Assembly: GCA_016342495.1 (NCBI GenBank)
Contig: JAEIOG010000002.1
Coordinates: forward strand, 9,320-73,319
Direction of reading: 5' to 3'
DNA: 64,000 nucleotides
DNA from: Phycisphaerae bacterium
GTDB lineage: Bacteria; Planctomycetota; Phycisphaerae; Sedimentisphaerales; SM23-30
Shown here: positions 7,315 through 23,455 of the stretch, piece after piece
How positions within the stretch are numbered: position 1 is the stretch's first letter
Layout: every line of letters starts with the position of its first letter
Notes under the pieces: model-generated
Databases searched by the model: none
Told to the model about the DNA's origin: nothing
Seen by the model: the letters and a program-made list of their open reading frames with translations, nothing else
Program-made: the position numbers and the translations under genes

Positions 7315-7344
7315 AAAAATTCATAACTCCATACCATATTCAAG

Positions 7345-7870: not shown

Positions 7871-8109
7871 TACCCAAGCCACAATAAAAACCAATTGCAT
7901 CAAAGCAGGCTCTGCCAGCTAAAAAAAATCCCCAACCATCTACGCGCACCTGCAGTCTAAATAAAATTAAACCCCGTCGCCCAGCAACATCGGGGTCTAA
8001 TTCACTTTTACCATTACATTTAAATTAAGGGAATCTCTAATAATTGCTTTCATCAGCGAGAGCGAAAAAAGATTCGCTCACAGTAGAAATCCAATTTTTA
8101 GAGTTTGCC

Positions 8110-8538
8110 TTAGGCTATCTCGACCATTTCTATCTCAAAGGTCAGATCCTCACCGGCCAATTCATGGTTAGCATCAAGAGTGATGGCTTCTTCAGCAATT
8201 TTAGTAATTGTTACAACTACCATCTGACCACCAGGCTGAGGCATTTGCAGTTTCATACCCAACTCCAATTGCATATCTTCTGGAAAACGGTCCCGCGGAG
8301 CTTCTAAAGTTAGCTCATCACGTTTTTCCCCATAAGCCTCTGCCGCTGGAATTGTTATTGTCTTTTTATCGCCTACAGCCATACCTTCAACTGCCTTATC
8401 AAAACCAGGAATCATTTGCCCAGCGGCAACTTTGAATTCCAAAGGGTCCCGCCCATGGGAACAATCAAATTCATTGCCATCTTTTAAGGTGCCGCGGTAA
8501 TGTACTTTTACGGTATCGCCTTGTTTAACCTGAGTCAT
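8110..8538 (-). CDS. FKBP-type peptidyl-prolyl isomerase (SlyD/SlpA type, no His-rich tail)
   Basis: GDTVKVHYRGTL.DG.EFD.S, GQMIPGF, AYG, LDANH.LAGEDLTFEI. Confidence 0.95.
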   Translation of the reverse strand: MTQVKQGDTVKVHYRGTLKDGNEFDCSHGRDPLEFKVAAGQMIPGFDKAVEGMAVGDKKTITIPAAEAYGEKRDELTLEAPRDRFPEDMQLELGMKLQMPQPGGQMVVVTITKIAEEAITLDANHELAGEDLTFEIEMVEIA

Positions 8539-8776
8539 TTTACTTACTTTCTGTGAGATAGTTATTGTTTGGCTCCTTACTTACAGGATTTCGCCGACAA
8601 TTATAACAAAATATCTCCCATACCGAAACAATAATCAATCCCAATATTGGGCCTACCCTTTCCCGACAACTATTACTCCATATTTACATGAATTAGTTTG
8701 AGAACTATCGAATCTAACGCTATCATCTGTTATTGCAATTCAGCAAATATATATCCAGCTTAAAATGGAGACTATT

Positions 8777-9688
8777 ATGAAAAATTTCACTTCCATCGCC
8801 TTATTGCTCTTATGCACTCTGACCGCAGGTTGCCAGAATAATCATCGAGCCGCCCTCAACCATGAAATCCAAATGCATGGCTTGCTTGCCGAAGGTGCAA
8901 CCGTACAGGAACTCGCAAGCGATTTCAATTTCACCGAAGGCCCTGCCGCCGACACCCAGGGCAATGTCTACTTCACCGATATCCCCAATAATCGCATCCA
9001 CAAATTCTCCATAGATAATAAACTTTCCTTATTCAAGGATGACACCGGCGGGGCTAATGGCCTGTATTTCGATAAAAATGGCAATTTATTGGCCTGTGCT
9101 GGCGGCGCTGGCAAACTCGTCCGATTTGATCTCCATACCAAAATGACCGAAACTCTAGCCGACAAATTCAACAATAAATCCTTCAATAGCCCCAATGATC
9201 TCTGGCCCGACCATAAAGGTGGCATTTATTTCACCGACCCACGCTATGGCCGCGACCGAAATCTGCCCCAGGACGGCGAACACGTCTATTATCTTCCACC
9301 CGATGGCAAAAACATAATTCGCGTAGTCAACGATATGGTCCGCCCTAATGGCCTGATCGGCACTCCCGATGGCAATATCCTCTATATCACCGATAACGGT
9401 GCTGGCAAAACATGGAAATACCACATCAATAGCGATGGCTCTTTGACAGACAAAACCCTTTTTGCCGAAGTTGGCAGCGATGGTATGACCATCGACATTC
9501 TCGGCAACGTTTACCTTACTACAAATTCTATCGAAGTTTATCAACCTTCAGGCCAGAAACTTACTAATATCCCCATCCCCCAGCGACCCACAAATGTCAC
9601 TTTTGGCGGCAAAAATAACGACACCCTGTTTATCACCGCCAGAAAATCGCTATATGCCATCAAGCTCAGGGTAACCGGAGCTGAATAA
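8777..9688 (+). CDS. SMP-30/gluconolactonase family lipoprotein
   Basis: Lipobox TAGC, FTEGPA, FNSPNDL, YFTDP.YG, RPNG, SDGMT.D, PTNVTFGG; GGAG RBS before ATG at 8777. Confidence 0.92.
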   Translation: MKNFTSIALLLLCTLTAGCQNNHRAALNHEIQMHGLLAEGATVQELASDFNFTEGPAADTQGNVYFTDIPNNRIHKFSIDNKLSLFKDDTGGANGLYFDKNGNLLACAGGAGKLVRFDLHTKMTETLADKFNNKSFNSPNDLWPDHKGGIYFTDPRYGRDRNLPQDGEHVYYLPPDGKNIIRVVNDMVRPNGLIGTPDGNILYITDNGAGKTWKYHINSDGSLTDKTLFAEVGSDGMTIDILGNVYLTTNSIEVYQPSGQKLTNIPIPQRPTNVTFGGKNNDTLFITARKSLYAIKLRVTGAE

Positions 9689-9725
9689 TTTATATAATGC
9701 AATTAATAAATAAAGGAGCATTTTC

Positions 9726-10505
9726 ATGAAACGAAGAGATTTTTTAACCGCCACGGCCATAACAACAGCCATTTCTATCACTAGCCAATCCCACGCTGCC
9801 GATAAGGCACCCGACACCAAACAATATCTGGAATTGCGACAATATGAATTTTCTTCCCGCCAAAAGCAAAACGCCTTTGAAAATTTCCTCGCCAAAGCCG
9901 CCATCCCGGCATTAAACCGCCAGTCAATCAAGCCCATAGGCGTTTTCAAAGCCGCTGACGACCAGAGTACCGACCTGTGGCTACTCATCCCGCACAATAC
10001 CGCCGAATCCGCAATTGCTTCCAATTCCAAAATGCTCGCCGACCCACTTTTCAAACAAGCTGGCAGCGACATCATCACTTGCCCCAAGACCGATCTGGCC
10101 TACAAACGTTTTACCAGCTCGCTGCTGTTGGCTTTTGATAAATGCCCCAAAGCGGAAGTGCCATCTCGGAAAAGCTCCAGAATATTCCAATTACGCATAT
10201 ATGAAAGCCATAACACAACGATGGCTAAACGAAAAATCGAAATGTTCAACACCGGTGGCGAAATCGACCTGTTCAGAAGTACCGGACTAAACCCCGTATT
10301 TTTCGGCGAATCCATTGTTGGCTCTAAAATGCCAAATCTTACCTATATGGTTGGCTTTGACGACACCGAAGCCCAAACCAAAGCATGGGCTACTTTCCAA
10401 AAACACCCTAAATGGACAAAACTCAAATCCGACCCCTATTACAAAGACACCGTCTCCAATATCACCAACATTGTCCTGCGACCCAGCGACTCATCCCAAA
10501 TATAG
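9726..10505 (+). CDS. Tat-exported NIPSNAP family protein
   Basis: MKRRDFL twin-arginine signal; YLELRQY and FQLRIYES NIPSNAP repeats; MPNLTYM; LRP..SSQI end. Confidence 0.88.
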   Translation: MKRRDFLTATAITTAISITSQSHAADKAPDTKQYLELRQYEFSSRQKQNAFENFLAKAAIPALNRQSIKPIGVFKAADDQSTDLWLLIPHNTAESAIASNSKMLADPLFKQAGSDIITCPKTDLAYKRFTSSLLLAFDKCPKAEVPSRKSSRIFQLRIYESHNTTMAKRKIEMFNTGGEIDLFRSTGLNPVFFGESIVGSKMPNLTYMVGFDDTEAQTKAWATFQKHPKWTKLKSDPYYKDTVSNITNIVLRPSDSSQI

Positions 10506-10524
10506 CCAACCACCTTTAAAAAAC

Positions 10525-10560
10525 AAAAAGCCTCCTTATTATAATAGGGAGGCTTTTTTT
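10525..10560. terminator. Bidirectional intrinsic terminator
   Basis: AAAAAGCCTCC...GGAGGCTTTTTTT. Confidence 0.85.
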
Positions 10561-10593
10561 CCTGAAAAATCAAATTATTTCTTCAGCAAATCT

Positions 10594-10893
10594 CTATTCG
10601 TATGTGGCTTCTTCGGTGTCGATTTTTCGGGAAATTAGATACACGATGATTATAGCGATAGAATTCACTGCCAAAGCAATCTTTGGATGATAAGGCAGTG
10701 CCACTTCACTATTAATCAATTTCACCAATGGCAACGAAACCACATAAGATATCGCAACCATACTGATCATGGCAAAAAAGCCATAGATCACGTTCAACAA
10801 ATTAATGATGAACATCGTCAGAGTTCTACTAGCCATAACTTTATCCTTCCCATTCCATATATTATCTCCTGCCCGCATGTGTGTTTCTCCCAC
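10594..10893 (-). CDS. Small hypothetical membrane protein
   Basis: ORF with two hydrophobic segments; start uncertain. Confidence 0.45.
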   Translation of the reverse strand: MGETHMRAGDNIWNGKDKVMASRTLTMFIINLLNVIYGFFAMISMVAISYVVSLPLVKLINSEVALPYHPKIALAVNSIAIIIVYLISRKIDTEEATYE

Positions 10894-11198
10894 TCCACGG
10901 GCAGCTCATAACTAGAACGTCAACTAACTTAAAAAAATATTTTATCTACAAGCTATCACTTACTTAGTGACAATCTCTATATATAAATTCCCTAAAACAA
11001 GGAAAATTTGCTAAAAAAATAAAATTTTTCTTCAATTTATAAAAAATAGTAATGATAAATCATACAAATAACACACAGCTTACCCAACCTAACACTCTGA
11101 AGTTAAAAAAGTTAGAGCCCATATCAACAAAAGAACAATCAAATTGCTTTTACAATCAAAAATTTAACTCGCATCTAACAGCAACGCCGGCCAATCAC

Positions 11199-11849
11199 TC
11201 ACATACCAAGTGGTAGCTCCTCACCCATCTTTTTCATTATCTTACCCATCAGCTTTTCTTCACTTGGGCTAAGTGCATATCCGGTAATACCACCTGCTAC
11301 GCCACCTATAACTGCACCAGTACCAGCTTCACCACTGTCTTTACCGACTACAGCACCGGCGACCGCACCAACACCAACACCAATAGCAGTATTCAATGCC
11401 CGGTTGCTCTTGCCTTCGCCAGTTCCCATCCACAATGTCAAGCCAGTCTGGGCATCAACAATTTTTACGGTTATTATCACCGTATCCTTAAATTTCGGAA
11501 TATCTACCAGTACGATTGCTGGCACATTTAATATTTCACCCGCTTTGGCTATACTTTCTCTACTGGTAACATCGCTGGCCTGAAACTGTTGTTCTTTCAA
11601 TATCGCCTGTACCTTTTCCCGTTCAATTACCCGATAACCCTTACGCATCAATTCCATCTGGAACTTATTTGCTATTAGATTTTTATCATTACTACGATTA
11701 TACGCACCGCCCACAACATCTACTATTGCTATCTGATTGTACTTCACCGGGCTGAAATGCGGACTGCTTACAACATCAACCGTAGGACCGCAGCCCGAAA
11801 TAACCACGCACATCACCAACATTACCATCACTATAATCATCTTTTTCAT
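11199..11849 (-). CDS. Lipoprotein with CsgG/LpoB-like domain and glycine zipper
   Basis: Lipobox ISGC; VIERE.V.AILKEQ.FQ.S..T...KAGEILNV; KIVDAQTG..LW; GAVAGA/GAVIGGVAGG zipper; AGGAG RBS. Confidence 0.75.
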   Translation of the reverse strand: MKKMIIVMVMLVMCVVISGCGPTVDVVSSPHFSPVKYNQIAIVDVVGGAYNRSNDKNLIANKFQMELMRKGYRVIEREKVQAILKEQQFQASDVTSRESIAKAGEILNVPAIVLVDIPKFKDTVIITVKIVDAQTGLTLWMGTGEGKSNRALNTAIGVGVGAVAGAVVGKDSGEAGTGAVIGGVAGGITGYALSPSEEKLMGKIMKKMGEELPLGM

Positions 11850-12040
11850 GATTTTTCTCCTGTAGAGTTTTATCGTTTAACTTACATCTATTAATTTAGA
11901 CGTCGCTCAAGACTTTTTCTTGCATAAAAAATCGTCATTTCCACCATTATCTAACAATTCACACGAATTATCCACCTTTATTTCCCTACCTACGATAACC
12001 AATCTATCAACTTCCAACAAACAGCACCGTGCTAACCCCT

Positions 12041-12370
12041 TAACTATAACCACAAGCGCCAGCGCGTGGACTATGCCCACGCTGTTTAAAATAGCTTCTC
12101 TTCCTTATCTTTAATCGTATTCCTGCGCTGGGTGCCAGTGGCCTGCCATACCTGTTCGCCGTGGCATCCGTTGGCACCCTCACGCTAACTCATGTAGAGA
12201 CAAGGCATGCCTTGTCTCCCTCTCCCCACACATCGCACCAACCCCATCCCCCCAGGGCTAACGCATGAAATTTAATTATGTCATTCCCGCGACGGGTGGC
12301 AGCCAGGTAGGATGGGTAAAACTTGTTTTGCCCATGCGGTTTAAAATTTTCATGAGCAAAAGCGAATACG
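12041..12370 (+). repeat. REP-like mosaic cluster downstream of the terminase gene
   Basis: CTATAACCACAAGCGCCAGCGCGTGGAC, GTAGAGACAAGGCATGCCTTGTCTC (12194), GTAGGATGGG..GCCCATGC (12307), CATGAGCAAAAGCGAATAC (12351). Confidence 0.8.
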
Positions 12371-13537
12371 GATTTTCTGTTGGTTTTTGCTGACGGCCGT
12401 TTGAAATTCTGCTGGCGATGGAATGTGTTCGAGTCGCTGGTTGATTGCGCCGGGTGCCCGCACCCGGTATGGCCAACGCTCACGCATCACCCGGACATGT
12501 TCGCTTATCGTCGCTCGCCGCCGAACATATTTATCCACCACAAAAACCATCCCGTCACTATCAACCTGAATCAGCAAACAAGCAAACGGATTACTAAAAC
12601 CAAAATCAATCGCCCGATACGTCTCAAGCCCTTCCCGATATGCCACATCACCAACATTTATATCCGCGTCAAACTCCGCGAAAACCAAATCTTGAACAGA
12701 AGGCCTCTTACATAACATCTCGCTTTGCCACCCCGCTTTGCTGGCCCGACGCTTTTGTGCTATCGCATCGTCAATTTTATAATGACCACCCGCCTGCTTT
12801 GCCCGCCCCCTGCAATCTGCCAACAATGCACACCGACTGCAACTCCGACCCACACATTTTTCAATCACATCAAACAAACACCATTTAAAAATCTCCGCAT
12901 CACCCTGCTGAGCATTTTTGATAATCTTACTCATCAAACCCGTTGGCCTGTGCATCGTCGACAACACTTCCAGCCTTGCCGATATATTATTTTTCGATTG
13001 TGTCACAAACTGCGCCGCCTGCCACACATCCTCGTCAAACATCTCCACCTCATCACAACGCAAACGCTGAACATGATGGCCCCGCACGCTCGATTGCGAT
13101 TGCGTCAAAGCCTGAACCGATGACCCATTGACAAAGCGACAAATGTTTTGCGTTATCTTGCCATCAACCATTTCTTCATAGCCACCCATTAGCCCCTGCT
13201 GCACATATTCATACATTCGCTGCGACTGCTGTTGGCTGCCGCCCAATATCCGCACCTGACACCTCGGTAAAAAAACACATTCCAAAAGCGAAGCCGCCGC
13301 CGCCAACTGCGTCTTACCGCCACCCCGACAGGACCACACTACAATATCTTTATTGTCATTATTCAAAAGCGAATAACTCAAATAATCCAAAGGGGTATTA
13401 TGTTCCTTGCAAACCGAATTCACCGATAGCTTCAAACCCAAAAATGCCTCCGCATAAGCCGCCACCTGCTCACGACTACTAGGCCGACATCTCCGCAACC
13501 GCTCATACAACTTAACCTGACTACCTTCATCAAACAT
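12350..13537 (-). CDS. Phage terminase large-subunit-like protein, C-terminal nuclease domain apparently truncated
   Basis: Walker A SCRGGGKT, SVRG..V..LRCDEVE Walker B, LSTM coupling motif, VFAEFD and AIDFGFSNPFACL nuclease start; similarity ends at ..WPYRV (~12465); GGGAG RBS before ATG 13537. Confidence 0.8.
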   Translation of the reverse strand: MFDEGSQVKLYERLRRCRPSSREQVAAYAEAFLGLKLSVNSVCKEHNTPLDYLSYSLLNNDNKDIVVWSCRGGGKTQLAAAASLLECVFLPRCQVRILGGSQQQSQRMYEYVQQGLMGGYEEMVDGKITQNICRFVNGSSVQALTQSQSSVRGHHVQRLRCDEVEMFDEDVWQAAQFVTQSKNNISARLEVLSTMHRPTGLMSKIIKNAQQGDAEIFKWCLFDVIEKCVGRSCSRCALLADCRGRAKQAGGHYKIDDAIAQKRRASKAGWQSEMLCKRPSVQDLVFAEFDADINVGDVAYREGLETYRAIDFGFSNPFACLLIQVDSDGMVFVVDKYVRRRATISEHVRVMRERWPYRVRAPGAINQRLEHIPSPAEFQTAVSKNQQKIRIRFCS

Positions 13538-13568
13538 ATCAATTCTCCCAATAATAAAATCATTCCAG

Positions 13569-13770
13569 GTAGGATGGGCTCTGCCCATGCCGTTTCAAAC
13601 ACCATGACCACAACCAACACCACAACCCAGCCCGCCTACTAACACCCACCAATCACCCACAGCATATCAAACCATCGCAAACACCACCTATAACCACAAG
13701 CGCCAGCGTGTGGACGTCAAACCCATGAACAAAGCGAATACCACAACCAACCCGTCACCTAACACCAACC
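13569..13770 (+). repeat. REP-like mosaic (GTAG REP plus composite modules)
   Basis: GTAGGATGGGCTCTGCCCATGC; CACAACCCAGCCCGCC.ACTAACAC; CTATAACCACAAGCGCCAGCG.GTGGAC; CATGAACAAAGCGAATACC. Confidence 0.8.
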
Positions 13771-13960
13771 GTAACATTTTAGCGATCTGGAGCAAAACAG
13801 CACGAAGCGGTATCGCCGTGCTAAGGCACTATGCTACATTACATGATGATTAAAGTGATTTTAGCATTAAAACACAATTTGCGTTTTTTAGCTGGGCGCT
13901 GCCGCTACCAGCTGTTTGTTGGTCAATTGTCGCCTTTGCTACATGTCGCTAAAATATTAC
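13771..13960 (+). mobile_element. 190-bp MITE, copy 1
   Basis: TIRs GTAACATTTTAGCGA / TCGCTAAAATATTAC; exact 8-bp target duplication CACCAACC (13763-13770 and 13961-13968); near-identical inverted copy at 21619-21808. Confidence 0.92.
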
Positions 13961-13980
13961 CACCAACCAATACAATTTCC

Positions 13981-14060
13981 AGCCCGAAGGGCTAACACAC
14001 CACAGCCCAGGGCAACGCCCTGGGTATACACCCCCAAAAAAATCCACGCCCTGAAAGGGC
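13981..14060 (+). repeat. REP-like element GCCCGAAGGGC...CCCAGGGCAACGCCCTGGG...GCCCTGAAAGGGC
   Basis: Three GC-rich hairpins; related copies at 14656 and 15614. Confidence 0.75.
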
Positions 14061-14136
14061 AACATAAAACATATTCATTCCTCACTTTGAAAACAAACCC
14101 TACCACCCACAATCACATACCATTACCAAACAATCA

Positions 14137-14421
14137 TTACTGGGGGACATAAGAATTCTTAAAAGCCTCAAATTCACTACCAGCGCCATTATTACATGCA
14201 ATTTTTCCAGCCATTATCATATCGGAATCATTCATTATATCACTGCAATTACCCCAATTATGAACAATTGCCCTGCAAGCCAAAATTCCCCATCTTTTAC
14301 CTAATGTTTTAATGCTATCTTCAACAACAGGTATCGCATCACTTTGATAACCGTTAAGACAAATTGCTAATATACATTTATATCTTGCTTCTATCCAGTT
14401 AGTTTTTTTGGTATAAGCCAT
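14137..14421 (-). CDS. Small Cys-containing orphan ORF or gene fragment
   Basis: 94 codons, no clear RBS, starts just after the GTTAAC palindrome; no family recognised. Confidence 0.4.
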   Translation of the reverse strand: MAYTKKTNWIEARYKCILAICLNGYQSDAIPVVEDSIKTLGKRWGILACRAIVHNWGNCSDIMNDSDMIMAGKIACNNGAGSEFEAFKNSYVPQ

Positions 14422-14443
14422 TTTGTAATATTCGGCGAGTGAC

Positions 14444-14468
14444 AGCGGTTAACTCGTTAACCGATGGA
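14444..14468. repeat. CGGTTAAC-NN-GTTAACCG palindrome
   Basis: AGCGGTTAACTCGTTAACCGATGG. Confidence 0.75.
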
Positions 14469-14653
14469 AAACTCATCCAAACCACAATAACCTAATCTAT
14501 GCAATATGTAGGACATGCATCCTGCTTGTCCATATTTCAACCATGAACAAAGCGAACACTCTCCCCACTCATTGCAAGCAAGCCTTATTATTCCATACTA
14601 AATATTACACAAACAAATCAAAAAAAAATTCCCCACAACCACTAATCCACCCT

Positions 14654-14763: not shown

Positions 14764-14796
14764 CCCGAGGACCCAGTCTCAACCGCAAATAACACA

Positions 14797-15790: not shown

Positions 15791-15796
15791 TAATTT

Positions 15797-16260: not shown

Positions 16261-16287
16261 AACAATATCTCCCAATCTCAGTAGTTG

Positions 16288-16345: not shown

Positions 16346-17065
16346 CTTAATAAAATACACCGGCACACTACCCATCTGCTCGACAACAAATTCACATTTA
16401 TCCACAAAACTATCTTGCCGCTTATTTACATACTTACTCATAAAACGTTTTATCCGATAACACACCAATTCTTTTTCACTTTCACCCAGACCATCTATAG
16501 CTTCCATCAATTTTTTCCCACTAATCAAATCTCTATCCTTAATCTCCATCTCATCAAAAGTCGCCAACAATTTTTCATGCTCAGCCGACACGCCACCATC
16601 ATAGCGAATCATCCCGGCTTTTTCAAAAAATGGATTAATCCTTCCCATCACCGCCAGTGCTTCTACATATTTCGTCCCAGCCATATCCAGGGTCTCTTTT
16701 ACCAGCCAACTGCCCAGCGACATCCCGCGATATTGGGGCGCTATAATCACCCGACTTATACAACGCATTTCACTATTCAATAATTTCAATCCCGCCGACC
16801 TGTCCGAACCGCAATACCTGTTATCTGTTGCGACATTTCTCAACCGGCAATTTATCACCGGCATCGAATAAACTATCACACCCACAACTTCCCTTTTACC
16901 GCCTAACTTATAAACTAAGGTTTTGCGCTCAGAATAAATCGCGAAAACCTTGTCAACAAACCCTGGCCTGCCATTGCGATAATGAAAATCTTTCAAAGCA
17001 CCATAAGCTCCCATCCCCGCCGGCTCAATCACCAAACCATCATACAATGTACATCTTTTCACCAT
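16325..17065 (-). CDS. GNAT-fold acetyltransferase-like protein (phage ABC-ATPase-associated type)
   Basis: FHY motif, VVGVIVYS.P, ISRVIIAPQYRGMSLG acetyl-CoA-binding motif, EALAVMGRINPFFEKAGM. Confidence 0.75.
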   Translation of the reverse strand: MVKRCTLYDGLVIEPAGMGAYGALKDFHYRNGRPGFVDKVFAIYSERKTLVYKLGGKREVVGVIVYSMPVINCRLRNVATDNRYCGSDRSAGLKLLNSEMRCISRVIIAPQYRGMSLGSWLVKETLDMAGTKYVEALAVMGRINPFFEKAGMIRYDGGVSAEHEKLLATFDEMEIKDRDLISGKKLMEAIDGLGESEKELVCYRIKRFMSKYVNKRQDSFVDKCEFVVEQMGSVPVYFIKKKRVRE

Positions 17066-17071
17066 GACTTC

Positions 17072-17743
17072 TCACTTCCCCGGATAATACACATCGCAAT
17101 GACTGCCCAAATGTTTTATCATCACCACATCCGGCGCCAGGTCTTCCAGCATATCATCATGGCTGGTAGCTACCACAAATGTCGTTCCAAACCGGTTGGC
17201 AAACTTTCGCACATTATGAGCCACCACCGCCGCAGTCACCCGATCCAGCGTTGAGCAAAACTCATCGATAAAAATCACATCCGGATTAATCGACAATGCC
17301 AGTGCCAACTTAAACCGATAGCGTTGACCATCACTTAAATGCTCAGAATTTCTCAGCACCGCAAAGGCATCACTTAATCCAGCCATACTGAGCCAACTCA
17401 TAACATCACTCAAATGGTCATCAATAAAACAATCAACCAATGGCCTGCCGGTTGGCACTTCTAATTCTCCAAGATTAAGAATCTCTTTAAAACCGACACC
17501 CTTCTTTTTGGCATTAGCCTGCATCTGCTCATACAACATCTTAAATATCTGCGATTTACCGGCCCCGCTGCCACCGGTAATATAAACCACCTGACCAGAT
17601 TCGATTTTGACTTTGCAATTATCAACAACAATCATCTCCCGACCAGGTCGGTTGCCCAGACCAAACATCGACGAAACCGCCGCGACATTTGGCGATAATT
17701 TTACTTTGGTATCAAACTTCTTCGTTAAAACATAACTTGTCAT
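17072..17743 (-). CDS. Soluble ABC-superfamily ATPase with no linked permease
   Basis: Walker A ITGGSGAGKS, signature LSDGQRYR, Walker B IFIDEF..TLD, H-switch VATSHDD; GGAG RBS before ATG 17743. Confidence 0.85.
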   Translation of the reverse strand: MTSYVLTKKFDTKVKLSPNVAAVSSMFGLGNRPGREMIVVDNCKVKIESGQVVYITGGSGAGKSQIFKMLYEQMQANAKKKGVGFKEILNLGELEVPTGRPLVDCFIDDHLSDVMSWLSMAGLSDAFAVLRNSEHLSDGQRYRFKLALALSINPDVIFIDEFCSTLDRVTAAVVAHNVRKFANRFGTTFVVATSHDDMLEDLAPDVVMIKHLGSHCDVYYPGK

Positions 17744-17777
17744 AATAATCTTCTCCAAATTGATAACTTTTACTATA

Positions 17778-18248
17778 TTAGCAGCATCCCGCGAATCTTG
17801 CTGATTTTTCATTGAGGTTTTTATGTTCATTTCTGGCTTTGTGTTTTATTAGCCATTCATCCAAATAACAAAGTTGGCGATAAACTGTACTGACAGAAAT
17901 TTTTCTTTTCAATGCGATAGTTCGCCGCCCCTGACCTAACAAAAAATGGTCGTAGGCAATCAATAATTGATTGTCAGTGAACTGATTACGATTTCGCAAA
18001 AAACACATATAGTCGTCGCTCAATAATCTTTTTACCATTTTACGAATTTTCCTGGATATATTCGCCGGGGTGATACCAATTAAAATACCCAGTTGACTAA
18101 AACTGGCATTATGGGACAAGTGTAGCTCCAGAATTATCCGGTCTGGTGGGGCCAGAAGTTTCATTCTATTCATGATAATGTCATACTCTGCCAATTGCAT
18201 TTTTCGAAAATCAACTGATTTACTAATTTGATCTAATTTGCCAACCAT
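17778..18248 (-). CDS. Protein with two sigma-70 region-4-like HTH domains (putative regulator)
   Basis: LAPPDRIILELH....SFSQLG..IGIT..NISRKIRK..KRL and FTDNQ..IAYDHFL.G...RTIA....ISVSTVYRQL; AAGGAG RBS before ATG 18248. Confidence 0.65.
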   Translation of the reverse strand: MVGKLDQISKSVDFRKMQLAEYDIIMNRMKLLAPPDRIILELHLSHNASFSQLGILIGITPANISRKIRKMVKRLLSDDYMCFLRNRNQFTDNQLLIAYDHFLLGQGRRTIALKRKISVSTVYRQLCYLDEWLIKHKARNEHKNLNEKSARFAGCC

Positions 18249-18288
18249 AAAAACTCCTTTCAATACATTCTATATAATCAATACAAAT

Positions 18289-18316
18289 AGTTTGTTATTT
18301 ATATAACTAACAGACT
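18289..18316. promoter_or_regulatory. 28-bp imperfect palindrome, candidate operator
   Basis: AGTTTGTTATTTATATAACTAACAGACT (24/28 positions self-complementary), about 40 bp upstream of the HTH gene start. Confidence 0.55.
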
Positions 18317-18690
18317 TATGAAGTTTACAACAGATTTAGGGAAATGCAAAAAAAATTTAGAATTTTTATAAAAAAATATTAAAATTACTTGTTTATCTAA
18401 CTTTTTAGGGCATAATTAAGGGTATAGAGGGTAAATAATTAAACAGTTATTATTTAATAGAAGGCCCGGCCTGTGAATTAAATAACAGTTGTCGCAGTTT
18501 ATTTAGGGTATTTTTATGGTAAGTTTGTGTCTACTACTAATTTTTACATGTAATTGCATAATTTATACCCAAAGGGTATGAACTTTTTGGCAGGTCCAGT
18601 TTTAATGCCTTGCAATGCAAGAACTTATGTATTTAAGAATGGAAAATTTTAAGGGTAATCAGTATACAATGCTTTTCAACAGGAGCTAAT

Positions 18691-19476
18691 ATGTCTTTAG
18701 GTCAGATCATCAGACAAAAACGTGAATCATTAAAAATGACATTAGATGAAGTATCACGTCACGTGGGTTATTCAAAACCTTATCTTTCGACCATTGAAAC
18801 TGGGCGGGTCAAGAATCCGCCAGCTGATGATTTACTAATTAAGCTTGAGCAAACTTTGCAGTTTACTTCTGGTGATTTACTAAGGATGGCCCATTTGGAA
18901 AAGATGCCAGCTGATGTTCGCCAGGCCTTTGAAAACAATCAGGCTGAGGTGGAATACTGGCGCGGGTTGGTTCGGAAGCTGGCGGCGAATGATGATAATT
19001 TAGCGATTGAAATTGATGAAAAACACGGTCATTTTTTGGGAAAAAACGCAAATAACTGCCAACAAATGTCGATTCCGGGACTTTTGGTGCCCGTAATTAA
19101 TAAGGTTTCGGCGGGATATCCGGTGGATTATGACGATATGGGCTATCCACCTGGTGCGGCGGATGACTATGTACGCTGTCCGGATTTGCATGATGCTAAT
19201 GCTTTTGCGGTACGGGTAGTGGGTGATTCGATGGAGCCAAAGTATAAGCAAGGGGACATCATTGTGTTTTCACCAAATATAAATGTCAATAGCGGCGATG
19301 ACTGTTTTGTGCGGTTGACCGACCCGCATGAGACGACATTTAAGCAGGTGTTTTTTAATGGGGATGGGAAAGTACGTCTTCAGCCTCGTAATCATAAATA
19401 TGCGCCGATGGTATTGCCCGAAGAAAAGATTAATGGGATATATAAGGCGGTTATTCGGTATGAAACGATTACGTGA
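18691..19476 (+). CDS. CI/LexA-type repressor (XRE HTH plus S24 peptidase)
   Basis: N-terminal HTH_3 (SKPYLSTIETG), VSAG Ala-Gly cleavage site, VVGDSMEP catalytic Ser, TTFKQ catalytic Lys; AGGAG RBS. Confidence 0.92.
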   Translation: MSLGQIIRQKRESLKMTLDEVSRHVGYSKPYLSTIETGRVKNPPADDLLIKLEQTLQFTSGDLLRMAHLEKMPADVRQAFENNQAEVEYWRGLVRKLAANDDNLAIEIDEKHGHFLGKNANNCQQMSIPGLLVPVINKVSAGYPVDYDDMGYPPGAADDYVRCPDLHDANAFAVRVVGDSMEPKYKQGDIIVFSPNINVNSGDDCFVRLTDPHETTFKQVFFNGDGKVRLQPRNHKYAPMVLPEEKINGIYKAVIRYETIT

Positions 19477-19504
19477 TTTTGTTTTATTTTTGTTATTTTT
19501 TTGT

Positions 19505-20346
19505 GGCGCTGGTTTGATATGCTGCGGGCGATTGGTTGGTGTTAGTTAGCGAGCTGGGTTGTGGGATTCGCTTTGCTCATGGGTTTGAAGTCCACGTGCT
19601 GGCGCTTGTGGTTATAGTTTGTGTTTGGGTTTTATTTTACAGGGTGGGCAAAGTAGTTGCCCATCTTATGCGACAGTATCTGTTCAATGGTAATGCCGAC
19701 AATATCCTTTAGAGCTGTGGGCAGCATATGGGAATTTCCATCGGTTAACAAGTTAACCGCTGGGTGCCCGTCGCCGTTGAAAGATTATCAGGGGACGATG
19801 AATTGGATGAGGATTGAATTTTGTAGAAGGTATGAGGTATTCGCTTCGCTCATGAAATTTATATCAGCGTGGGCATGGCCCACCCTTTCGTTGGTAGAAT
19901 TGTTTGCCGCTGGCTTTGTTCGCTGGTGCCGTTTGCTTCATGTTTGCGGTTGGGACAGAGTCTGCAAAATGAATTTGTCCATCCTACCTGGCTGGCTACA
20001 TTGGCTGGTCGGTGGGTTGGTGTTAGTTGGCGGGCTTGGTTGTGGGATTCGCTGTGCTCATGGGTTTGACGTCCACGCGCTGGCGCTTGTGGTTATAGTT
20101 TGTGTTTGGGCTAGTTTGATATGCTGCGGGCGATGGGTTAGTGTTGGTTGGCGGGGCTGGTGTTTGTGTTTGAGGCAAAATATGATAGCGGGATAGGTAG
20201 ATGATTTAGCCGGCCTATATGGCTGTGGGCAGCATATGGAAATCCCCGTCGGTTAAGAAGTTAACCGCTGGGTGTCCATCGTTTTTTTGGGTTCATTGAG
20301 ATATTTGATTGGGTTAAGATTAAGACGTTGCATGCAACGTCTCTAC
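19505..20346 (-). repeat. Long inverted-orientation REP-like mosaic with internal direct duplications
   Basis: Reverse complements of the 4.6/13.6/15.7-kb modules at 19505-19630 and 20010-20160; GCTGTGGGCAGCATATGG..TCGGTTAA.AAGTTAACCGCTGGGTG at ~19714 and ~20222; AGACGTTGCATGCAACGTCTCTAC at 20323. Confidence 0.85.
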
Positions 20347-20379
20347 AATTTGGTGGTGTAGCCGAAAAGGAGTAAGGTA

Positions 20380-21546
20380 GTGATTTATACAATTGGTAAT
20401 ATCCGGTTGCCTTTGGCGATAGAAGGGTTTCATAATCTCTTAAATAATACCGGTGTTCCGGCATTGATTATTTTGACGGCGGTGATCTGCGCGATCGTCA
20501 TTAATGCTATTATTTTCAGGATTATCCTGGTCATTAGCAAACGCAGCCGTCATATACCTGATAAATCACCTTCGGATCATTGCCACAAGCCCGGACAATG
20601 GGTATTGATATCCTGTTCATTGTATCTAGCATTGAATTTGATAGACATGGAACAATCGACTCGTAAATTTCTATATCATTTGATAACATTATTTTTAATT
20701 GCTTCTGTCTCCTGGCTGGTCGGGAAGGTGATATATGTGCTTGAAGATTTGGTTCTTAGGAATTTTGACGTAACGGCAAAAGACAACCTTCGGGCCAGAA
20801 AAATTCATACACAGCTAAAAGTATCAAGACGAATTTTAATTATTGTAATTGGAATTATATCAGTCGGTATGATGCTGATGACTTTTGACAAGGTGCGTCA
20901 GTTAGGGACTACGCTGTTAGCATCGGCGGGCATTTTGGGGATTGTTGTCGGGCTTGCCGCCCAACGGACGATCGGCACTTTTATAGCGGGTCTACAGATT
21001 GCTTTTACGCAGCCTATCCGTATTGATGATGTTTTGATCGTAGAAAACGAGTGGGGCCGGGTCGAAGAGATCACCTTAACATACGTTGTTTTGAAGATAT
21101 GGGATCAAAGGCGTTTGATAGTTCCCATTACGTTTTTTATTGAAAAACCATTTCAAAACTGGACAAGGGTTTCATCGGATTTACTTGGCACGGTATTTGT
21201 TTACGTTGACTACACGATACCGGTTGAAAAGGTCAGGGAGCAATTAAAGGTAATTCTTGATAAGTCTGAGCACTGGGATCGAAAGGTGTGTGTATTGCAG
21301 GTTACAAATACAAGTGAGAGAACTATCGAACTGCGGGCATTAATGAGTGCATCGGATGCTTCAATTGCCTGGACGCTGCGCTGCGAGGTGAGAGAGAAAC
21401 TCATCGAATATATTAAAGATCATTATGGCTGGACTCTGCCTAAGGCCCGAGTAGAATTAGAAAAACAATCGATGGCAAATACCGATACAGAAAACGAATT
21501 TCTGAAAGGAAACGATCATGGCAATCTAAAAGACAAAGTTCAATAG
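20380..21546 (+). CDS. MscS family mechanosensitive channel
   Basis: LLASAGILGIVVGLAAQ.T, QPIRIDD, EWGRVEEITLTYVV..IWD.RRL.VP, PFQNWTR; AAGGAG upstream of GTG. Confidence 0.93.
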   Translation: MIYTIGNIRLPLAIEGFHNLLNNTGVPALIILTAVICAIVINAIIFRIILVISKRSRHIPDKSPSDHCHKPGQWVLISCSLYLALNLIDMEQSTRKFLYHLITLFLIASVSWLVGKVIYVLEDLVLRNFDVTAKDNLRARKIHTQLKVSRRILIIVIGIISVGMMLMTFDKVRQLGTTLLASAGILGIVVGLAAQRTIGTFIAGLQIAFTQPIRIDDVLIVENEWGRVEEITLTYVVLKIWDQRRLIVPITFFIEKPFQNWTRVSSDLLGTVFVYVDYTIPVEKVREQLKVILDKSEHWDRKVCVLQVTNTSERTIELRALMSASDASIAWTLRCEVREKLIEYIKDHYGWTLPKARVELEKQSMANTDTENEFLKGNDHGNLKDKVQ

Positions 21547-21618
21547 TAATAAATCCTGGTAGTTAAGGTGAGCGGTAAACTATCAAAGGTTTGGAGAGTT
21601 ATCAGAGTAAAATTATTG

Positions 21619-21808
21619 GTAACATTTTAGCGACATGTAGCAAAGGCGACAATTGACCAACAGACAGCTGGTAGCGGCAGCGCCCAGCTAAAAAACGCAA
21701 ATTGTGTTTTAATGCTAAAATCACTTTAATCATCATGTAATGTAGCATAGTGCCTTAGCACGGCGCTACCGCTTCGTGCTGTTTTGCTCCAGATCGCTAA
21801 AATGTTAC
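21619..21808 (-). mobile_element. 190-bp MITE, copy 2 (inverted relative to copy 1)
   Basis: Perfect 15-bp TIRs GTAACATTTTAGCGA/TCGCTAAAATGTTAC; 8-bp target duplication AATTATTG (21611-21618 and 21809-21816). Confidence 0.92.
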
Positions 21809-22302
21809 AATTATTGTCAGTTGCTAAATATTATTACAATAAATCGACGTAAGCTTCCGAGCAACCAGTGGGACCAGCTAAGGCAGATAAACCATTTGTT
21901 AATGATGTGACGACCAAGACTATAGAGGAATTGGTTTCCTGGTGGGTTGTGTTTTTTGGCAAAGGGGGGAGTTTGATTGTCACTTGAGCACCCGGGGAGT
22001 TATGGTGTACCCAGCTGTGGAGTTTGGTGATTATTGGACCTGGGGATGATTAATATTGCAAAAGAGTAAGTTTTTGGTGTTGCCAACGGGGCCGGTGGGG
22101 TTATATAATTTAATGTTAATGCTTATTTTTAGTAAGTTTACGCTGATAAAAGGTATATTATAATGGTTTTATGTTGACCTGCGGATATGTAAGCTATAAA
22201 CTCAAGCGCTTTCGATTGTTTTATAATAGGTATAATAGCCGATGATATTAACATAAGATGTCCAGAACCGGATAGAGAAAGACAGTAAATATAAAAGATA
22301 GC

Positions 22303-22421
22303 GTAACATTTTAGCGACCTGGAGCAACCAGTGATGATTGGCAAGAAATAAGATTTTCTATCTAACCAACACACTATGGGGACAAGCTGGGAGCTTATCC
22401 TACCTATAGCTAAAATATTAC
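22303..22421 (+). mobile_element. 119-bp MITE with the same ends and a different interior
   Basis: GTAACATTTTAGCGACCTGGAGCAA ... TAGCTAAAATATTAC; 8-bp target duplication AAGATAGC (22295-22302 and 22422-22429). Confidence 0.88.
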
Positions 22422-22508
22422 AAGATAGCCATTGCGATGGAAATATCATAATAATAACCGACCAATACATAGAATTAGCATAAACTGTTGATTCAGAAGG
22501 ACTTATGG

Positions 22509-23390
22509 ATGGCCAACAAGGCGGAAAAGAGTTTCGCAAACGACTTTAGGAAATTTTTTCTGAAGGGTCTGGCAACATTATTGCCAACGGTATTGACCAT
22601 TATTTTGCTGATTAAAGGCTATGAATTTATTCAGGAGAACATAAGCGTTCATATCACCGAGGGGGTAATTAAGCTGGTAGTAAACTCAACAGACAGCTAT
22701 CCGGTTGTTGACCCTGAAGAATTACCTGAATTTTACCGGAGTAACCCTGATATATCGATAGAGCAAAAAAGTAGTATGACCCCGGAAGAAGCGTTAAGAA
22801 GTAAAGCTGTTCGCAGTTGGAAAATGAGCGAACAATGGAATCAATGGCCCAGATCGCTGGTAGGTTTTGTGCTGGCGGTGCTATTGGTGTATATTGTCGG
22901 CCGGGTGCTGGCATCGTTTCTAGGTCGCCGCCTGTGGCAGATGTTTGAACATGGCGTAGCGCGAGTTCCAGGTTTTAAGCAGGTTTATCCACATATTAAA
23001 CAGGTAACCGAGTTTTTCTTTGGGGAAAACAAGGTTCAGTTTAATCGGGTGGTGGCGGTGCAATACCCCAGGGCAGGTTTATGGTCGATAGGATTAGTGA
23101 CCGGTAGTGGCATGAACTATATCAATGAAACGCAAAAGGAGCAGTATTTGACGATATTTGTTCCAAGTTCACCAACCCCGGTAACCGGTTATATAATACA
23201 CGCCAAACGGGACGAGGTACTGGACCTTCCAATGACAATAGATGAGGCATTTAGATTCACGATAAGTGGTGGAGTAATTGTTCCGGAACATCAATTGGTT
23301 CCTGGTAGCCATAAGGAATTTCCAGCGGTGGCGGAATTGATAAGAAAACAAGAGATTAAGAACGAAACTGAAACTAAAAATGAAGATTAA
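22509..23390 (+). CDS. DUF502 family membrane protein
   Basis: FF.KGL..LLP..LT, RVPG.K.VY..IKQ, VAVQYPR.G.WSIG.VTG, FVPSSPTPVTGY, AFRF.ISGG; AAGGA RBS before ATG 22509. Confidence 0.88.
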   Translation: MANKAEKSFANDFRKFFLKGLATLLPTVLTIILLIKGYEFIQENISVHITEGVIKLVVNSTDSYPVVDPEELPEFYRSNPDISIEQKSSMTPEEALRSKAVRSWKMSEQWNQWPRSLVGFVLAVLLVYIVGRVLASFLGRRLWQMFEHGVARVPGFKQVYPHIKQVTEFFFGENKVQFNRVVAVQYPRAGLWSIGLVTGSGMNYINETQKEQYLTIFVPSSPTPVTGYIIHAKRDEVLDLPMTIDEAFRFTISGGVIVPEHQLVPGSHKEFPAVAELIRKQEIKNETETKNED

Positions 23391-23455
23391 TCTGTCAGAA
23401 CCTAGCAGAGGCAAGGTATGGCAGACAGTTACAAACAAGATAGGAGAACCTGCTA

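What the first reader, a model, noticed from the sequence alone, without database searches (positions are those of the whole stretch)
8000..23400. Sharp GC-skew reversal centred on the phage-like control region: oriC or a run-off replication origin
The + strand is strongly C-rich from about 8 to 17.7 kb, even inside + strand genes (line 8941: about 25 C vs 9 G by hand count). It is strongly G-rich from about 18.3 to 23 kb (line 19201: about 22 G vs 9 C). A C-to-G switch is the established signature of a bidirectional origin, and gene orientation and REP orientation also diverge here. There is no dnaA/dnaN and no TTATCCACA cluster at the switch, and the skew looks strongest near the switch and weaker further away. 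This fits either a DnaA-gene-unlinked oriC or repeated in-situ amplification from a phage-derived origin, like the run-off replication coupled to the Bartonella GTA (inference).
Basis: partly seen in the sequence, partly recalled or inferred. Interest (0 to 1): 0.75.

Follow-up and report, generated by a model that had tools for sequence, protein, structure and literature searches.

The report
Sharp GC-skew switch beside lexA
A very sharp flip in DNA strand composition lies between a bacterial SOS-repressor gene and a phage-like gene cluster; it looks like a place where replication forks have long diverged, but this genome has at least ten such flips, so it cannot simply be called the chromosome's origin.

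Summary
The cumulative G-C minimum of the window is at base 18,284, in the 427-bp spacer between an HTH gene and a LexA-like gene. It is the largest C-to-G switch in the 5.4-Mb draft genome and does not depend on gene orientation. The "phage-like control region" is the clade's own lexA, paired divergently with a conserved HTH/ABC-ATPase/GNAT/TerS-like/TerL-like module.

A switch here does not by itself identify oriC:
- The genome has 10 sharp upward switches and 1 sharp downward one.
- Its skew profile is a sawtooth.
- A complete relative (G004) shows the same pattern, with a smooth 300-kb decline of third-codon skew between two jumps.
- No DnaA boxes lie at the switch. The best DnaA-box cluster sits upstream of dnaN on another contig.

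In favour of real fork divergence:
- The switch falls inside a conserved gene pair.
- Both sides are compositionally equilibrated.
- The spacer is among the most AT-rich in the genome.
- It carries a repeat array found nowhere else in the genome.

My odds are 0.45 for a long-standing replication-initiation site (the only one or one of several), 0.30 for a rearrangement junction and 0.04 or less for phage run-off replication. All the evidence is compositional.

The parts
2501..17800 (.). C-rich arm: + strand skew -0.295, steepening towards the switch
   Evidence: Mean gene GC3 skew is -0.25 at 0-8 kb and -0.43 at 8-18.3 kb, for + and - genes alike.
8765..10505 (+). Two real + strand genes (SGL/gluconolactonase-like and NIPSNAP) that carry the C-rich skew against their own orientation
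   Evidence: Pfam PF08450 (E 5.8e-40) and PF07978 (E 1.4e-12). GC3 skews are -0.65 and -0.53.
12350..13588 (-). Terminase-large-subunit-like gene, lacking about the last 120 aa of its orthologues
   Evidence: PHROG 2, E 1.9e-13. The G004 orthologue of 480 aa aligns only over its residues 9-359. Orthologues in relatives have open frames of 479-576 aa.
15862..16275 (-). Small protein with weak similarity to a terminase small subunit
   Evidence: PHROG 2538, E 0.004. Conserved in G007, G015, G016, G017 and G013.
16325..17065 (-). GNAT-like protein of the module
   Evidence: Weak Pfam GNAT matches and PHROG 886, E 1.6e-8. GC3 skew is +0.63 in coding orientation.
17072..17830 (-). ABC-type ATPase of the module
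   Evidence: PF00005, E 3.6e-14, and PHROG 293, E 2.2e-36.
17778..18263 (-). HTH / sigma-70-region-4-like regulator. Its own GC3 skew is about 0, so the polarity changes within or beside it.
   Evidence: Weak matches. GC3 skew is +0.02.
18264..18690 (.). AT-rich divergent spacer holding the cumulative skew minimum (18,284). It has five same-strand AGGGTA copies (18419-18657) and a 16-nt inverted repeat (18443-18458 / 18477-18492).
   Evidence: GC is 0.269; only 1.6% of 752 spacers of 300-1500 bp are this low. It is the only site in the 5.4-Mb genome with 4 or more same-strand AGGGTA in 300 bp. Window counts are and the repeats. No DnaA box with 1 mismatch or fewer lies here.
18691..19476 (+). 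LexA-like repressor (HTH_3 + peptidase S24), the clade's conserved host gene
   Evidence: PF00717 (E 6.7e-20) and PF01381 (E 1.2e-8). Orthologues at 47-69% identity occur in 29 of 31 genomes including this one. GC3 skew is +0.47.
19477..20379 (.). REP-like repeat block, G-rich on the + strand. Copies of the same families left of the switch lie in the opposite orientation.
18700..38200 (.). G-rich arm (skew +0.132), decaying to about 0 beyond 38 kb and to negative values beyond 67 kb on the contig

Best explanation
The switch at 17.8-18.7 kb is a long-standing reversal of replication polarity on the host chromosome. DNA to its left has been copied leftward and DNA to its right rightward for long enough that synonymous sites on both sides have equilibrated. 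The simplest mechanism is that forks start in or beside the AT-rich lexA/HTH spacer, making it a replication-initiation site.

It is not phage-derived and it is not a DnaA-box-type oriC. It is one tooth of a sawtooth skew profile (abrupt upward jumps, gradual declines) that runs through this genome and through a complete genome of the same family. Within the 0.45 I put about 0.2 on 'the main or only origin' and about 0.25 on 'one of several initiation sites'.

Shown: the composition pattern, its independence from gene orientation, its position inside a conserved gene pair, and the family-wide sawtooth. Inferred: that skew polarity reflects fork direction, and that forks start here.
For: 1. Sharpness and rank. 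The cumulative minimum is at 18,284, and this is the largest of the sharp switches in the genome.

2. Orientation independence. + and - genes have the same GC3 skew on each arm.

3. The switch lies inside a conserved unit. lexA and the HTH-ABC-GNAT-TerS-TerL module are adjacent and divergent in every relative where both were found on one contig (G004, G007, G012, G014, G017, G032-G035). An inversion ending between them would have separated them. Yet in G000 lexA (GC3 +0.47) and the module (+0.46 to +0.65) are both G-rich on their coding strands. In G004, G034 and G006 lexA is -0.39, -0.49 and -0.69. lexA has therefore equilibrated to rightward polarity.

4. Origin-like local features. The spacer GC of 0.269 is in the lowest 1.6% of 752 spacers, and the spacer holds the genome's only cluster of 4 or more same-strand AGGGTA. 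The array is absent from 9 of 9 orthologous spacers examined (one search found no multi-copy array in 4 of them).

5. Upward jumps behave like sources.
- There are 10 sharp upward switches and 1 sharp downward one (5-kb arms; binomial p=0.012).
- Increments of the skew profile are right-skewed (0.60-0.83, p<=0.001).
- The asymmetry is also present in GC3 skew (0.39-0.73, p<=0.001), while gene orientation itself is symmetric.

6. In the complete relative G004, GC3 skew falls smoothly and unimodally. It runs from +0.46 (210-375 kb) through 0.01 (450-525 kb) to -0.34 (650-715 kb), between jumps at 207.5 and 715.4 kb. The slope is -0.237 per 100 kb (r=-0.78, p=1e-41, 201 ORFs) and is the same for + and - genes. 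A mosaic of inverted blocks cannot produce this gradient.

7. The one bona fide DnaA-box cluster, upstream of dnaN, coincides with a partial upward jump. In G004 at 46.5 kb GC3 skew goes from -0.32 to -0.03 (p=8e-5). In G000 contig C122 at 51.7 kb it goes from -0.26 to -0.15 (p=0.02).

8. Genes in strongly polarised neighbourhoods are co-oriented with the G-rich strand in 59.5% of 738 cases (p=3e-7), as expected if skew tracks fork direction.
Against: - No DnaA box with 1 mismatch or fewer lies in the spacer. The best clusters in the genome lie upstream of dnaN (C122) and of one dnaA copy (C212).
- No initiator, helicase or primase gene is nearby.
- No k-mer is shared by the 10 switch sites (best p=3e-5 before correcting for about 3e4 words). 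The sites lie between divergent (5), co-oriented (4) and convergent (1) gene pairs.
- The switch is not conserved. Only G000 has a strong V at lexA|module; it is weak in G007 and G012 and absent in the other 11 of 14 family genomes where both sides could be scored.
- 4 of 4 G000 switches that could be placed in G004 have no switch there.
- G004's main switch coincides with an inversion-type synteny break against its congener G033, where the two flanking genes lie 1.7 kb apart inside 40 kb of uniformly positive skew (34 of 34 ORFs).
- G017 has short patches bounded by sharp jumps in both directions.
- The right arm here is sub-saturating (mean GC3 +0.13 to +0.19) and fades within about 20 kb.
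- The up/down asymmetry is significant only in the tail. Over all zero crossings (122 up, 127 down) the Mann-Whitney p is 0.084.
- TA skew barely follows GC skew (r=0.07).
- Everything is compositional; no replication data exist.
Confidence: 0.45

Rival explanations
1. Rearrangement junction. Two blocks that acquired opposite skew elsewhere on the chromosome were brought together by inversion or translocation. No forks start here, and the skew is a fading historical record.
For: - The family is extremely rearranged. Neighbouring G004 genes map to different G000 contigs almost gene by gene.
- The genome has many switches, in arbitrary gene-orientation contexts and with no shared motif.
- They are not conserved in G004 (4 of 4).
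- G004's main switch lies at an inversion-type break against G033.
- G017 carries 13-16 kb patches with sharp edges on both sides.
- The lexA+module unit sits in uniform polarity in either orientation in most relatives.
- A REP-rich block that could mediate recombination lies at 19.5-20.4 kb.
Against: - The polarity change falls between lexA and the module, whose adjacency is conserved. A single inversion ending there would have separated them.
- lexA's own third positions match the right arm (+0.47), so the state is old, not a fresh scar.
- Inversions create equal numbers of sharp upward and downward jumps, but 10 against 1 are seen.
- Inversions cannot produce the smooth, unimodal gradient of G004 or the negative slopes on both arms here.
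Confidence: 0.3
2. Phage-derived origin with repeated in-situ (run-off) amplification, coupled to a GTA-like packaging module under LexA control.
For: - TerL-like and TerS-like genes sit next to a LexA-type repressor.
- Skew decays with distance.
- The spacer carries an iteron-like direct-repeat array.
Against: - No replication initiator, helicase or primase was found in the module by Pfam, PHROGs or NCBIfam.
- No HK97-capsid (PF05065) or portal (PF04860) match exists in the 95%-complete genome.
- The TerL-like gene here is truncated.
- The module is conserved in 16 of 25 family genomes, but a strong switch at it occurs only in G000.
- The other 9 sharp switches have no copy of the module, which is single copy.
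- By inference, DNA amplified in a cell that then lyses contributes few of a lineage's replication rounds and should not shape synonymous-site skew.
- The listing shows 0 occurrences of 'GC skew' in the two main Bartonella run-off papers (PMC2697382, PMC3610622).
Confidence: 0.04
3. Composition artefact of divergent transcription, coding-strand purine bias or oriented G-rich REP elements.
For: - Genes diverge at the switch.
- The coding strand is G-rich on average (+0.085).
- REP-like copies are G-rich and flip orientation here.
Against: - + strand genes in the C-rich arm have GC3 skew of -0.65 and -0.53.
- The observed skew (-0.3 to -0.48) is several times the coding effect.
- The asymmetry persists after removing 0.1-0.2 x orientation and in GC3 alone.
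- Genes, not only spacers, carry the skew.
Confidence: 0.03

Closest known systems
Bacterial oriC as the C-to-G switch of GC skew (Lobry-type skew analysis, Ori-Finder/DoriC practice; recalled knowledge; SkewDB paper PMC8941118, passages read)
   Same: An abrupt, orientation-independent C-to-G switch at an AT-rich spacer with diverging genes. Genes show a mild leading-strand bias (59.5% co-oriented).
   Different: There is no DnaA-box cluster and no dnaA or dnaN nearby. The arms are only about 20-27 kb before the skew fades. It is one of at least 10 such switches, and it is not conserved at the orthologous locus in relatives.
Skew N-domains of the human germline: abrupt upward skew jumps at initiation zones with a linear decrease between them, read as a gradient of fork polarity (PMC3320577, passages read; PMC2764438, listing only)
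   Same: The profile is a sawtooth: sharp upward jumps, gradual declines through zero, and independence from gene orientation. This holds in G000 and G004.
   Different: This is a bacterium (DnaA, DnaN and Rho are present). The domains are about 50-500 kb rather than about 1 Mb. The signal is almost purely G/C. No timing or fork-direction data exist. A global two-replichore pattern is superimposed in G004.
Skew anomalies left by inversions, horizontal transfer or plasmid integration (SkewDB 'Anomalies' section, PMC8941118)
   Same: There are several local skew peaks in one chromosome, and one of them (G004 at 207.5 kb) lies at a synteny break against a congener.
   Different: Downward partners of equal sharpness are missing (10 against 1). 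The declines are smooth. The switch studied here lies inside a conserved gene pair.
Run-off replication from a phage-derived origin next to the Bartonella gene transfer agent (PMC2697382 and PMC3610622, search listing and start of abstracts only)
   Same: Phage-like packaging genes lie near the feature, and the signal decays with distance.
   Different: No phage replication genes and no capsid or portal genes were found. The module occurs without a switch in most relatives. I saw no report linking run-off replication to GC skew in that listing.

Membership tests
DnaA-dependent bacterial oriC | Global minimum of cumulative GC skew of the replicon | tested here: inconclusive
   It is the local minimum of the window and contig and the largest switch in the genome. 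The genome is in 221 contigs with at least 10 switches, so a global minimum cannot be defined.
DnaA-dependent bacterial oriC | Cluster of DnaA boxes (TTATCCACA-like) | tested here: not met
   There are 0 boxes with 1 mismatch or fewer in 18264-18690. The nearest are inside genes at 17619 and 16398. The top clusters are C122:51547-51831 (5 boxes, upstream of dnaN) and C212:23299-23388. Only the E. coli-type consensus was tried.
DnaA-dependent bacterial oriC | AT-rich unwinding region | tested here: met
   Spacer GC is 0.269 against a median of 0.36 for 752 spacers; 1.6% are as low.
DnaA-dependent bacterial oriC | Linkage to dnaA, dnaN or other conserved origin-flanking genes | tested here: not met
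   dnaA copies are on C94 and C212 and dnaN on C122. In complete G004 the lexA locus is 62 kb from the main switch and 98 kb from dnaN.
DnaA-dependent bacterial oriC | Switch conserved at the orthologous locus in relatives | tested here: not met
   Of 14 family genomes scored on both sides, it is strong only in G000, weak in G007 and G012, and absent in the other 11.
Phage-derived run-off replication origin (Bartonella type) | Phage replication genes (initiator, helicase or primase) at the origin | tested here: not met
   None were found among the ORFs of 11.2-19.5 kb by Pfam, PHROGs or NCBIfam.
Phage-derived run-off replication origin (Bartonella type) | Particle (capsid, portal) genes in the genome | tested here: not met
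   PF05065 and PF04860 gave 0 matches in the genome, which is 95% complete. Other capsid folds were not searched.
Phage-derived run-off replication origin (Bartonella type) | Local over-representation of flanking DNA in read coverage | not testable with these tools
   Only one public run holds the stretch, and only as short contigs without usable depth.
Skew N-domain (fork-polarity gradient between initiation sites) | Abrupt upward skew jumps outnumbering abrupt downward ones | tested here: met
   10 against 1. Increment skewness is 0.60-0.83, p<=0.001. The whole-distribution test is not significant (p=0.084).
Skew N-domain (fork-polarity gradient between initiation sites) | Roughly linear decrease of skew between jumps, independent of transcription direction | tested here: met
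   In G004 at 375-675 kb the slope is -0.237 per 100 kb, r=-0.78, 201 ORFs. For + genes it is -0.221 and for - genes -0.269. Both arms of this contig have negative slopes.
Skew N-domain (fork-polarity gradient between initiation sites) | Measured fork direction or replication timing matching the skew | not testable with these tools
   No replication data are available.
Inversion breakpoint | Synteny break at the switch and a partner switch of opposite sign | tested here: not met
   lexA|module adjacency is conserved. There is no sharp downward partner on the 94-kb contig, only a gradual decline. The feature is met for G004's 207.5-kb switch against G033.

The most novel reading that the evidence does not exclude
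Members of this marine-sediment bacterial family, which has PVC-like hallmarks, copy their chromosome from several initiation sites. A gradient of fork direction lies between the sites, giving a bacterial counterpart of eukaryotic skew N-domains. The lexA/HTH spacer of this window is the strongest such site in its genome. It is DnaA-box-free and marked by a unique AGGGTA repeat array, while the canonical dnaN-linked DnaA-box cluster is only a weak site.
Probability: 0.2. Interest if true: 0.9.

Novelty: new variant of a known kind. Interest (0 to 1): 0.62.

Why it matters
GC-skew switches are routinely used to place oriC in bacterial genomes and to check assemblies. This family shows that a very strong, clean switch can be one of many. 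The skew can form a sawtooth with smooth declines, which inversions alone do not explain.

If the jumps are real initiation sites, this would be a natural bacterial chromosome with several origins, which has not been established for bacteria. It would be directly testable, because a complete genome of the family exists. If they are not, the family is a warning case for skew-based origin calling, and the smooth gradients need another mutational explanation.

Tried and rejected
- **Gene orientation or transcription as the cause.** Rejected.
- **Several copies of the phage-like module at other switches.** Rejected; the module is single copy.
- **A conserved motif at the 10 switch sites.** Nothing survives multiple testing.
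- **AGGGTA array as a conserved operator.** It is absent from 9 of 9 orthologous spacers, and no multi-copy array appears in 4 of them.
- **'The module always carries its own skew'.** Rejected by G014, where the module's coding strand is C-rich (-0.72 to -0.78). My first window-based tally of a V in 6 relatives shrank to 1 strong and 2 weak once gene-level GC3 was used. In G017 the switch lies downstream of lexA.
- **Read evidence.** One run (X1, marine sediment metagenome) holds 24% of the sampled words, as short low-depth contigs of related strains. The joints seen fall in REP-like repeats. It says nothing about coverage or about an inversion polymorphism.
- **Rfam and tRNA scans of the window.** Both were empty.
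- **Earlier notes of this scan.** Nothing on this locus.
- **Literature searches (listings only unless stated).** I saw no description of sawtooth skew or several origins in bacteria of this group. These searches are narrow and do not show that none exists. Supplementary files were not consulted.
- **A further fetch from G033/G034** to test conservation of G004's switches.
- **Taxon name.** Not obtained. Prepilin-type SBP_bac_10 N-termini (9 matches), two DnaA copies and the marine-sediment source suggest the PVC group, but that is an inference.

Full report
**Observation.** The window is G000:C79:9320-73319 of a 5,418,934-bp draft genome (221 contigs, GC 41.4%, 95% complete). Skew is -0.326 over 8000-17700 and +0.222 over 18300-23000. 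In 1-kb windows it reaches -0.478 at 15.5-16.5 kb and +0.324 at 19.5-20.5 kb. The cumulative G-C minimum of the window is at base 18,284. With 8-kb arms this is the largest switch in the 2.65 Mb of the genome that could be tested (difference 0.539).

**It is not a gene-orientation effect.** I called 3,706 ORF-based genes, a crude caller using the longest non-overlapping ORFs of at least 100 aa. It also kept a few spurious ORFs, for example 19657-20196 in the REP block and three short - strand ORFs at 22-27 kb. Over these genes the coding strand is G-rich by only +0.085 overall and -0.028 at third positions.
- In the C-rich arm, the two Pfam-supported + strand genes (SGL 8765-9688, NIPSNAP 9726-10505) have third-position (GC3) skews of -0.65 and -0.53.
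- In the G-rich arm, the 1438-aa - strand gene 33816-38129 has +0.22.
- Mean GC3 skew in + strand coordinates is -0.25 for + genes and -0.27 for - genes left of the switch.

**What the genes are.**
- Left arm, mostly on the - strand: DUF481 protein, Rho, dephospho-CoA kinase, an FKBP isomerase, a glycine-zipper lipoprotein, then a TerL-like gene, a small TerS-like gene, a GNAT-like gene, an ABC-type ATPase and an HTH/sigma-region-4-like gene.
- Right arm, on the + strand: a LexA-like repressor (HTH_3 + peptidase S24), a REP-like repeat block, an MscS channel, and further on a ribosome-hibernation-like ORF.
- The LexA-like gene is not phage-borne. Orthologues of 47-69% identity occur once each in 29 of 31 genomes of the family and order, counting this one.
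- The TerL-like gene occurs in 16 of 25 family genomes. Wherever both genes were found on one contig, the module lies divergently next to lexA (G004, G007, G012, G014, G017, G032, G033, G034, G035).
- The module is single copy in G000. Its TerL-like gene lacks about the last 120 aa of the G004 orthologue. No HK97-capsid or portal family was found in the genome.
- The conserved adjacency also argues against a mis-join at the switch.

**Is it oriC?** Two dnaA copies lie on C94 and C212 and dnaN on C122. No DnaA box with 1 mismatch or fewer lies in the 18264-18690 spacer. The genome's best cluster (5 boxes, 2 perfect) is at C122:51547-51831, just upstream of dnaN, and the second best is upstream of the C212 dnaA. 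The complete relative G004 has the equivalent cluster at 46.1-46.9 kb, upstream of its dnaN at 47,059.

**Many switches and a sawtooth.**
- With 5-kb arms G000 has 10 sharp C-to-G switches and 1 sharp G-to-C switch (binomial p=0.012).
- Over all zero crossings of a smoothed profile (122 up, 127 down) the step sizes do not differ significantly (p=0.084), but the tail does: 13 against 4 at a step of 0.2 or more, and 5 against 0 at 0.3 or more.
- Increments between adjacent windows are right-skewed (0.60-0.83, p<=0.001 by contig-wise sign flips) with negative medians.
- The same holds for GC3 skew (0.39 and 0.73, p<=0.001) and after subtracting 0.1 or 0.2 x orientation. Gene orientation itself is symmetric.
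- The other switches are also orientation-independent. They lie between divergent (5), co-oriented (4) and convergent (1) gene pairs and share no motif.
- On this contig, GC3 skew declines on both sides of the switch: -0.08, -0.25 and -0.43 before it, then +0.13, +0.19, -0.03, +0.01 and -0.23 after it.

**The complete relative G004 (4,585,758 bp, same family).**
- Sampling 20 kb every 105 kb shows a global two-arm pattern. Skew is positive from about 0.21 to 2.45 Mb and negative from 2.55 to 4.58 Mb. There are patches and further sharp upward jumps inside the samples at about 1.93, 2.88 and 3.815 Mb.
- The first 800 kb, read contiguously, form a sawtooth. Skew falls to -0.4 at 200 kb and jumps at 207.5 kb. 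A plateau of GC3 +0.46 runs from 210 to 375 kb. A smooth, unimodal decline follows through +0.26, 0.01, -0.12 and -0.20 to -0.34 at 650-715 kb. A second jump at 715.4 kb reaches +0.44, and there is a sharp drop at about 753 kb.
- The decline has a slope of -0.237 per 100 kb (r=-0.78, p=1e-41, 201 ORFs). It is alike for + genes (-0.221) and - genes (-0.269), and within-bin spread is unchanged.
- A patchwork of inverted blocks would give bimodal values, not this gradient. The pattern matches the definition of skew N-domains in the human germline, which are read there as gradients of fork polarity between initiation zones (PMC3320577, passages).
- The dnaN-linked DnaA-box cluster coincides with a partial upward jump in G004 (-0.32 to -0.03 with 12-kb arms, p=8e-5, about the 94th percentile of steps) and with a small one in G000 (-0.26 to -0.15, p=0.02).

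**The orthologous locus in relatives.** In G004 the module and lexA lie at 140.5-146.1 kb, inside the C-rich arm and 62 kb from the main jump, with no switch. Gene-level GC3 skew in coding orientation could be scored on both sides in 14 family genomes.
- Only G000 has both lexA (+0.47) and the module (+0.46 to +0.65) clearly G-rich.
- G007 and G012 show this weakly.
- G004, G006, G034, G017, G035 and G015 have a G-rich module and a C-rich or neutral lexA.
- G014 is the reverse (lexA +0.42, module -0.72 to -0.78).
- G009, G016, G032 and G033 are weak.

In G017 the apparent switch lies downstream of lexA and bounds a 13-kb patch with a sharp opposite edge at 581 kb. The switch at this spacer is therefore specific to G000's lineage. 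The locus does tend to sit in strongly skewed DNA: the TerL-like gene has |GC3 skew| of 0.49 or more in 7 of 16 genomes, whereas 0.48 is the 95th percentile in G000. Related genomes are not independent samples.

**Evidence that switches can be rearrangement junctions.**
- Synteny between G004 and G000 is almost nil beyond small clusters.
- 4 of 4 G000 switches that could be placed in the fetched parts of G004 have no switch there.
- The two conserved genes flanking G004's main jump (25 kb apart) are 1.7 kb apart in the congener G033, one of them inverted, within 40 kb where 34 of 34 ORFs have positive GC3 skew.
- Both G004 jumps lie beside low-GC accessory genes: type I restriction-modification, an HNH endonuclease and unknowns.

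**Why this switch is still hard to explain as a junction.** It lies inside a conserved, divergent gene pair, so an inversion ending there would have split the pair. lexA's own synonymous sites agree with the right arm, whereas lexA is strongly C-rich in genomes where it is on the other polarity. The state is therefore old and equilibrated. The spacer is also unusual:
- Its GC of 0.269 is in the lowest 1.6% of 752 spacers of 300-1500 bp.
- It holds the only place in the genome with 4 or more same-strand AGGGTA in 300 bp. Five copies lie at 18419-18657, against 18 in the whole window, which is the chance expectation.
- The array is absent from the orthologous spacers of 9 relatives.

Whether the array is an iteron-like origin element or an operator set for the neighbouring HTH protein is open.

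**Run-off replication.** Nothing supports it. There are no replication genes in the module, no particle genes by two Pfam families, the TerL-like gene is truncated, the module occurs without a switch in most relatives, and there are switches without the module. By inference, amplification in cells that then lyse cannot account for equilibrated synonymous-site skew. The only public run holding the stretch consists of short contigs and gives no coverage information.

**Synthesis.** I put 0.45 on a long-standing fork-divergence (initiation) site of the host chromosome. That splits into about 0.2 for the main or only origin and about 0.25 for one of several. I put 0.30 on a rearrangement junction, 0.04 on a phage-derived run-off origin and 0.03 on a composition artefact; the rest is unexplained. 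The most notable result is the family-wide sawtooth with smooth gradients. I did not find it described for bacteria in the searches, which were listings and are not an exhaustive survey. All of this rests on composition. Replication profiling of a cultured relative would settle it.

Noticed in passing
G004:C1:1-800000 (loci L018-L037, L134-L152, L040): The complete genome of the same family shows a sawtooth GC3-skew profile. Sharp upward jumps lie at 207.5 and 715.4 kb, with a smooth 300-kb decline between them that is the same for genes on either strand. Further jumps appear in samples at about 1.93, 2.88 and 3.815 Mb.
   Followed up: partly
G000 contig C122:51547-51831 (outside the window); G004:C1:46100-46900: The best DnaA-box cluster of the genome lies upstream of dnaN (dnaN, a small ORF, then a gyrB-like gene). 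It is conserved in G004 and coincides in both genomes with a partial upward skew jump. It is a classical oriC candidate, but one without a full skew reversal.
   Followed up: partly
G000 contigs C94:11479-11958 and C212:22169-22642: There are two full-length DnaA paralogues (open frames of 449 and 499 aa). G004 and G025 also have two. The C212 copy has 4 DnaA boxes upstream.
   Followed up: no
window 12350-18263 (- strand) with 18691-19476 (+): A conserved five-gene module (HTH, ABC-type ATPase, GNAT-like, TerS-like, TerL-like) lies divergent from the clade's lexA. It occurs in 16 of 25 family genomes with no capsid or portal genes found. It may be an SOS-controlled domesticated packaging or nuclease module; its function is unknown.
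   Followed up: partly
window 12190-12483 / 12350-13588: The TerL-like gene of this genome lacks about the last 120 aa of its orthologues and is followed by REP-like repeats. It is probably decaying.
   Followed up: partly
window 18419-18657: Five same-strand AGGGTA copies (seven AGGG cores) lie in a 27%-GC spacer, the only such cluster in the 5.4-Mb genome. They are absent from the orthologous spacers of relatives. A 16-nt inverted repeat flanking GGCCCGGCC lies at 18443-18492.
   Followed up: partly
window 4639, 11907-12080, 13594-13770, 14443-14797, 15481-15741, 19494-20281, 29218: Several families of REP-like intergenic repeats are present. Their G-rich strand follows the local skew in 13 of 14 copies that lie in clearly skewed DNA genome-wide.
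   Followed up: partly
relatives G006, G009, G015, G016: In 4 of 14 family assemblies the contig ends between lexA and the module, often within 0.3-2.2 kb upstream of lexA. The cause could be low coverage of an AT-rich spacer or structural variation; it is unknown.
   Followed up: no
window 14797-15312; G000 contig C27:179-1264: A 171-aa secreted or lipoprotein-like ORF with no family match has two tandem paralogues (83-84% identity) on contig C27 and a fragment on C69.
   Followed up: no
G025:C1:396571-402181: In a complete genome of another family of the order, rho, coaE and lexA are near neighbours on one strand and the module is absent. In the window's family, the module lies between them and lexA is flipped.
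   Followed up: no
G000, whole genome: TA skew at third positions is dominated by the coding strand (+0.18) and hardly follows GC3 skew (r=0.07). The replication-like asymmetry is almost purely G against C.
   Followed up: no
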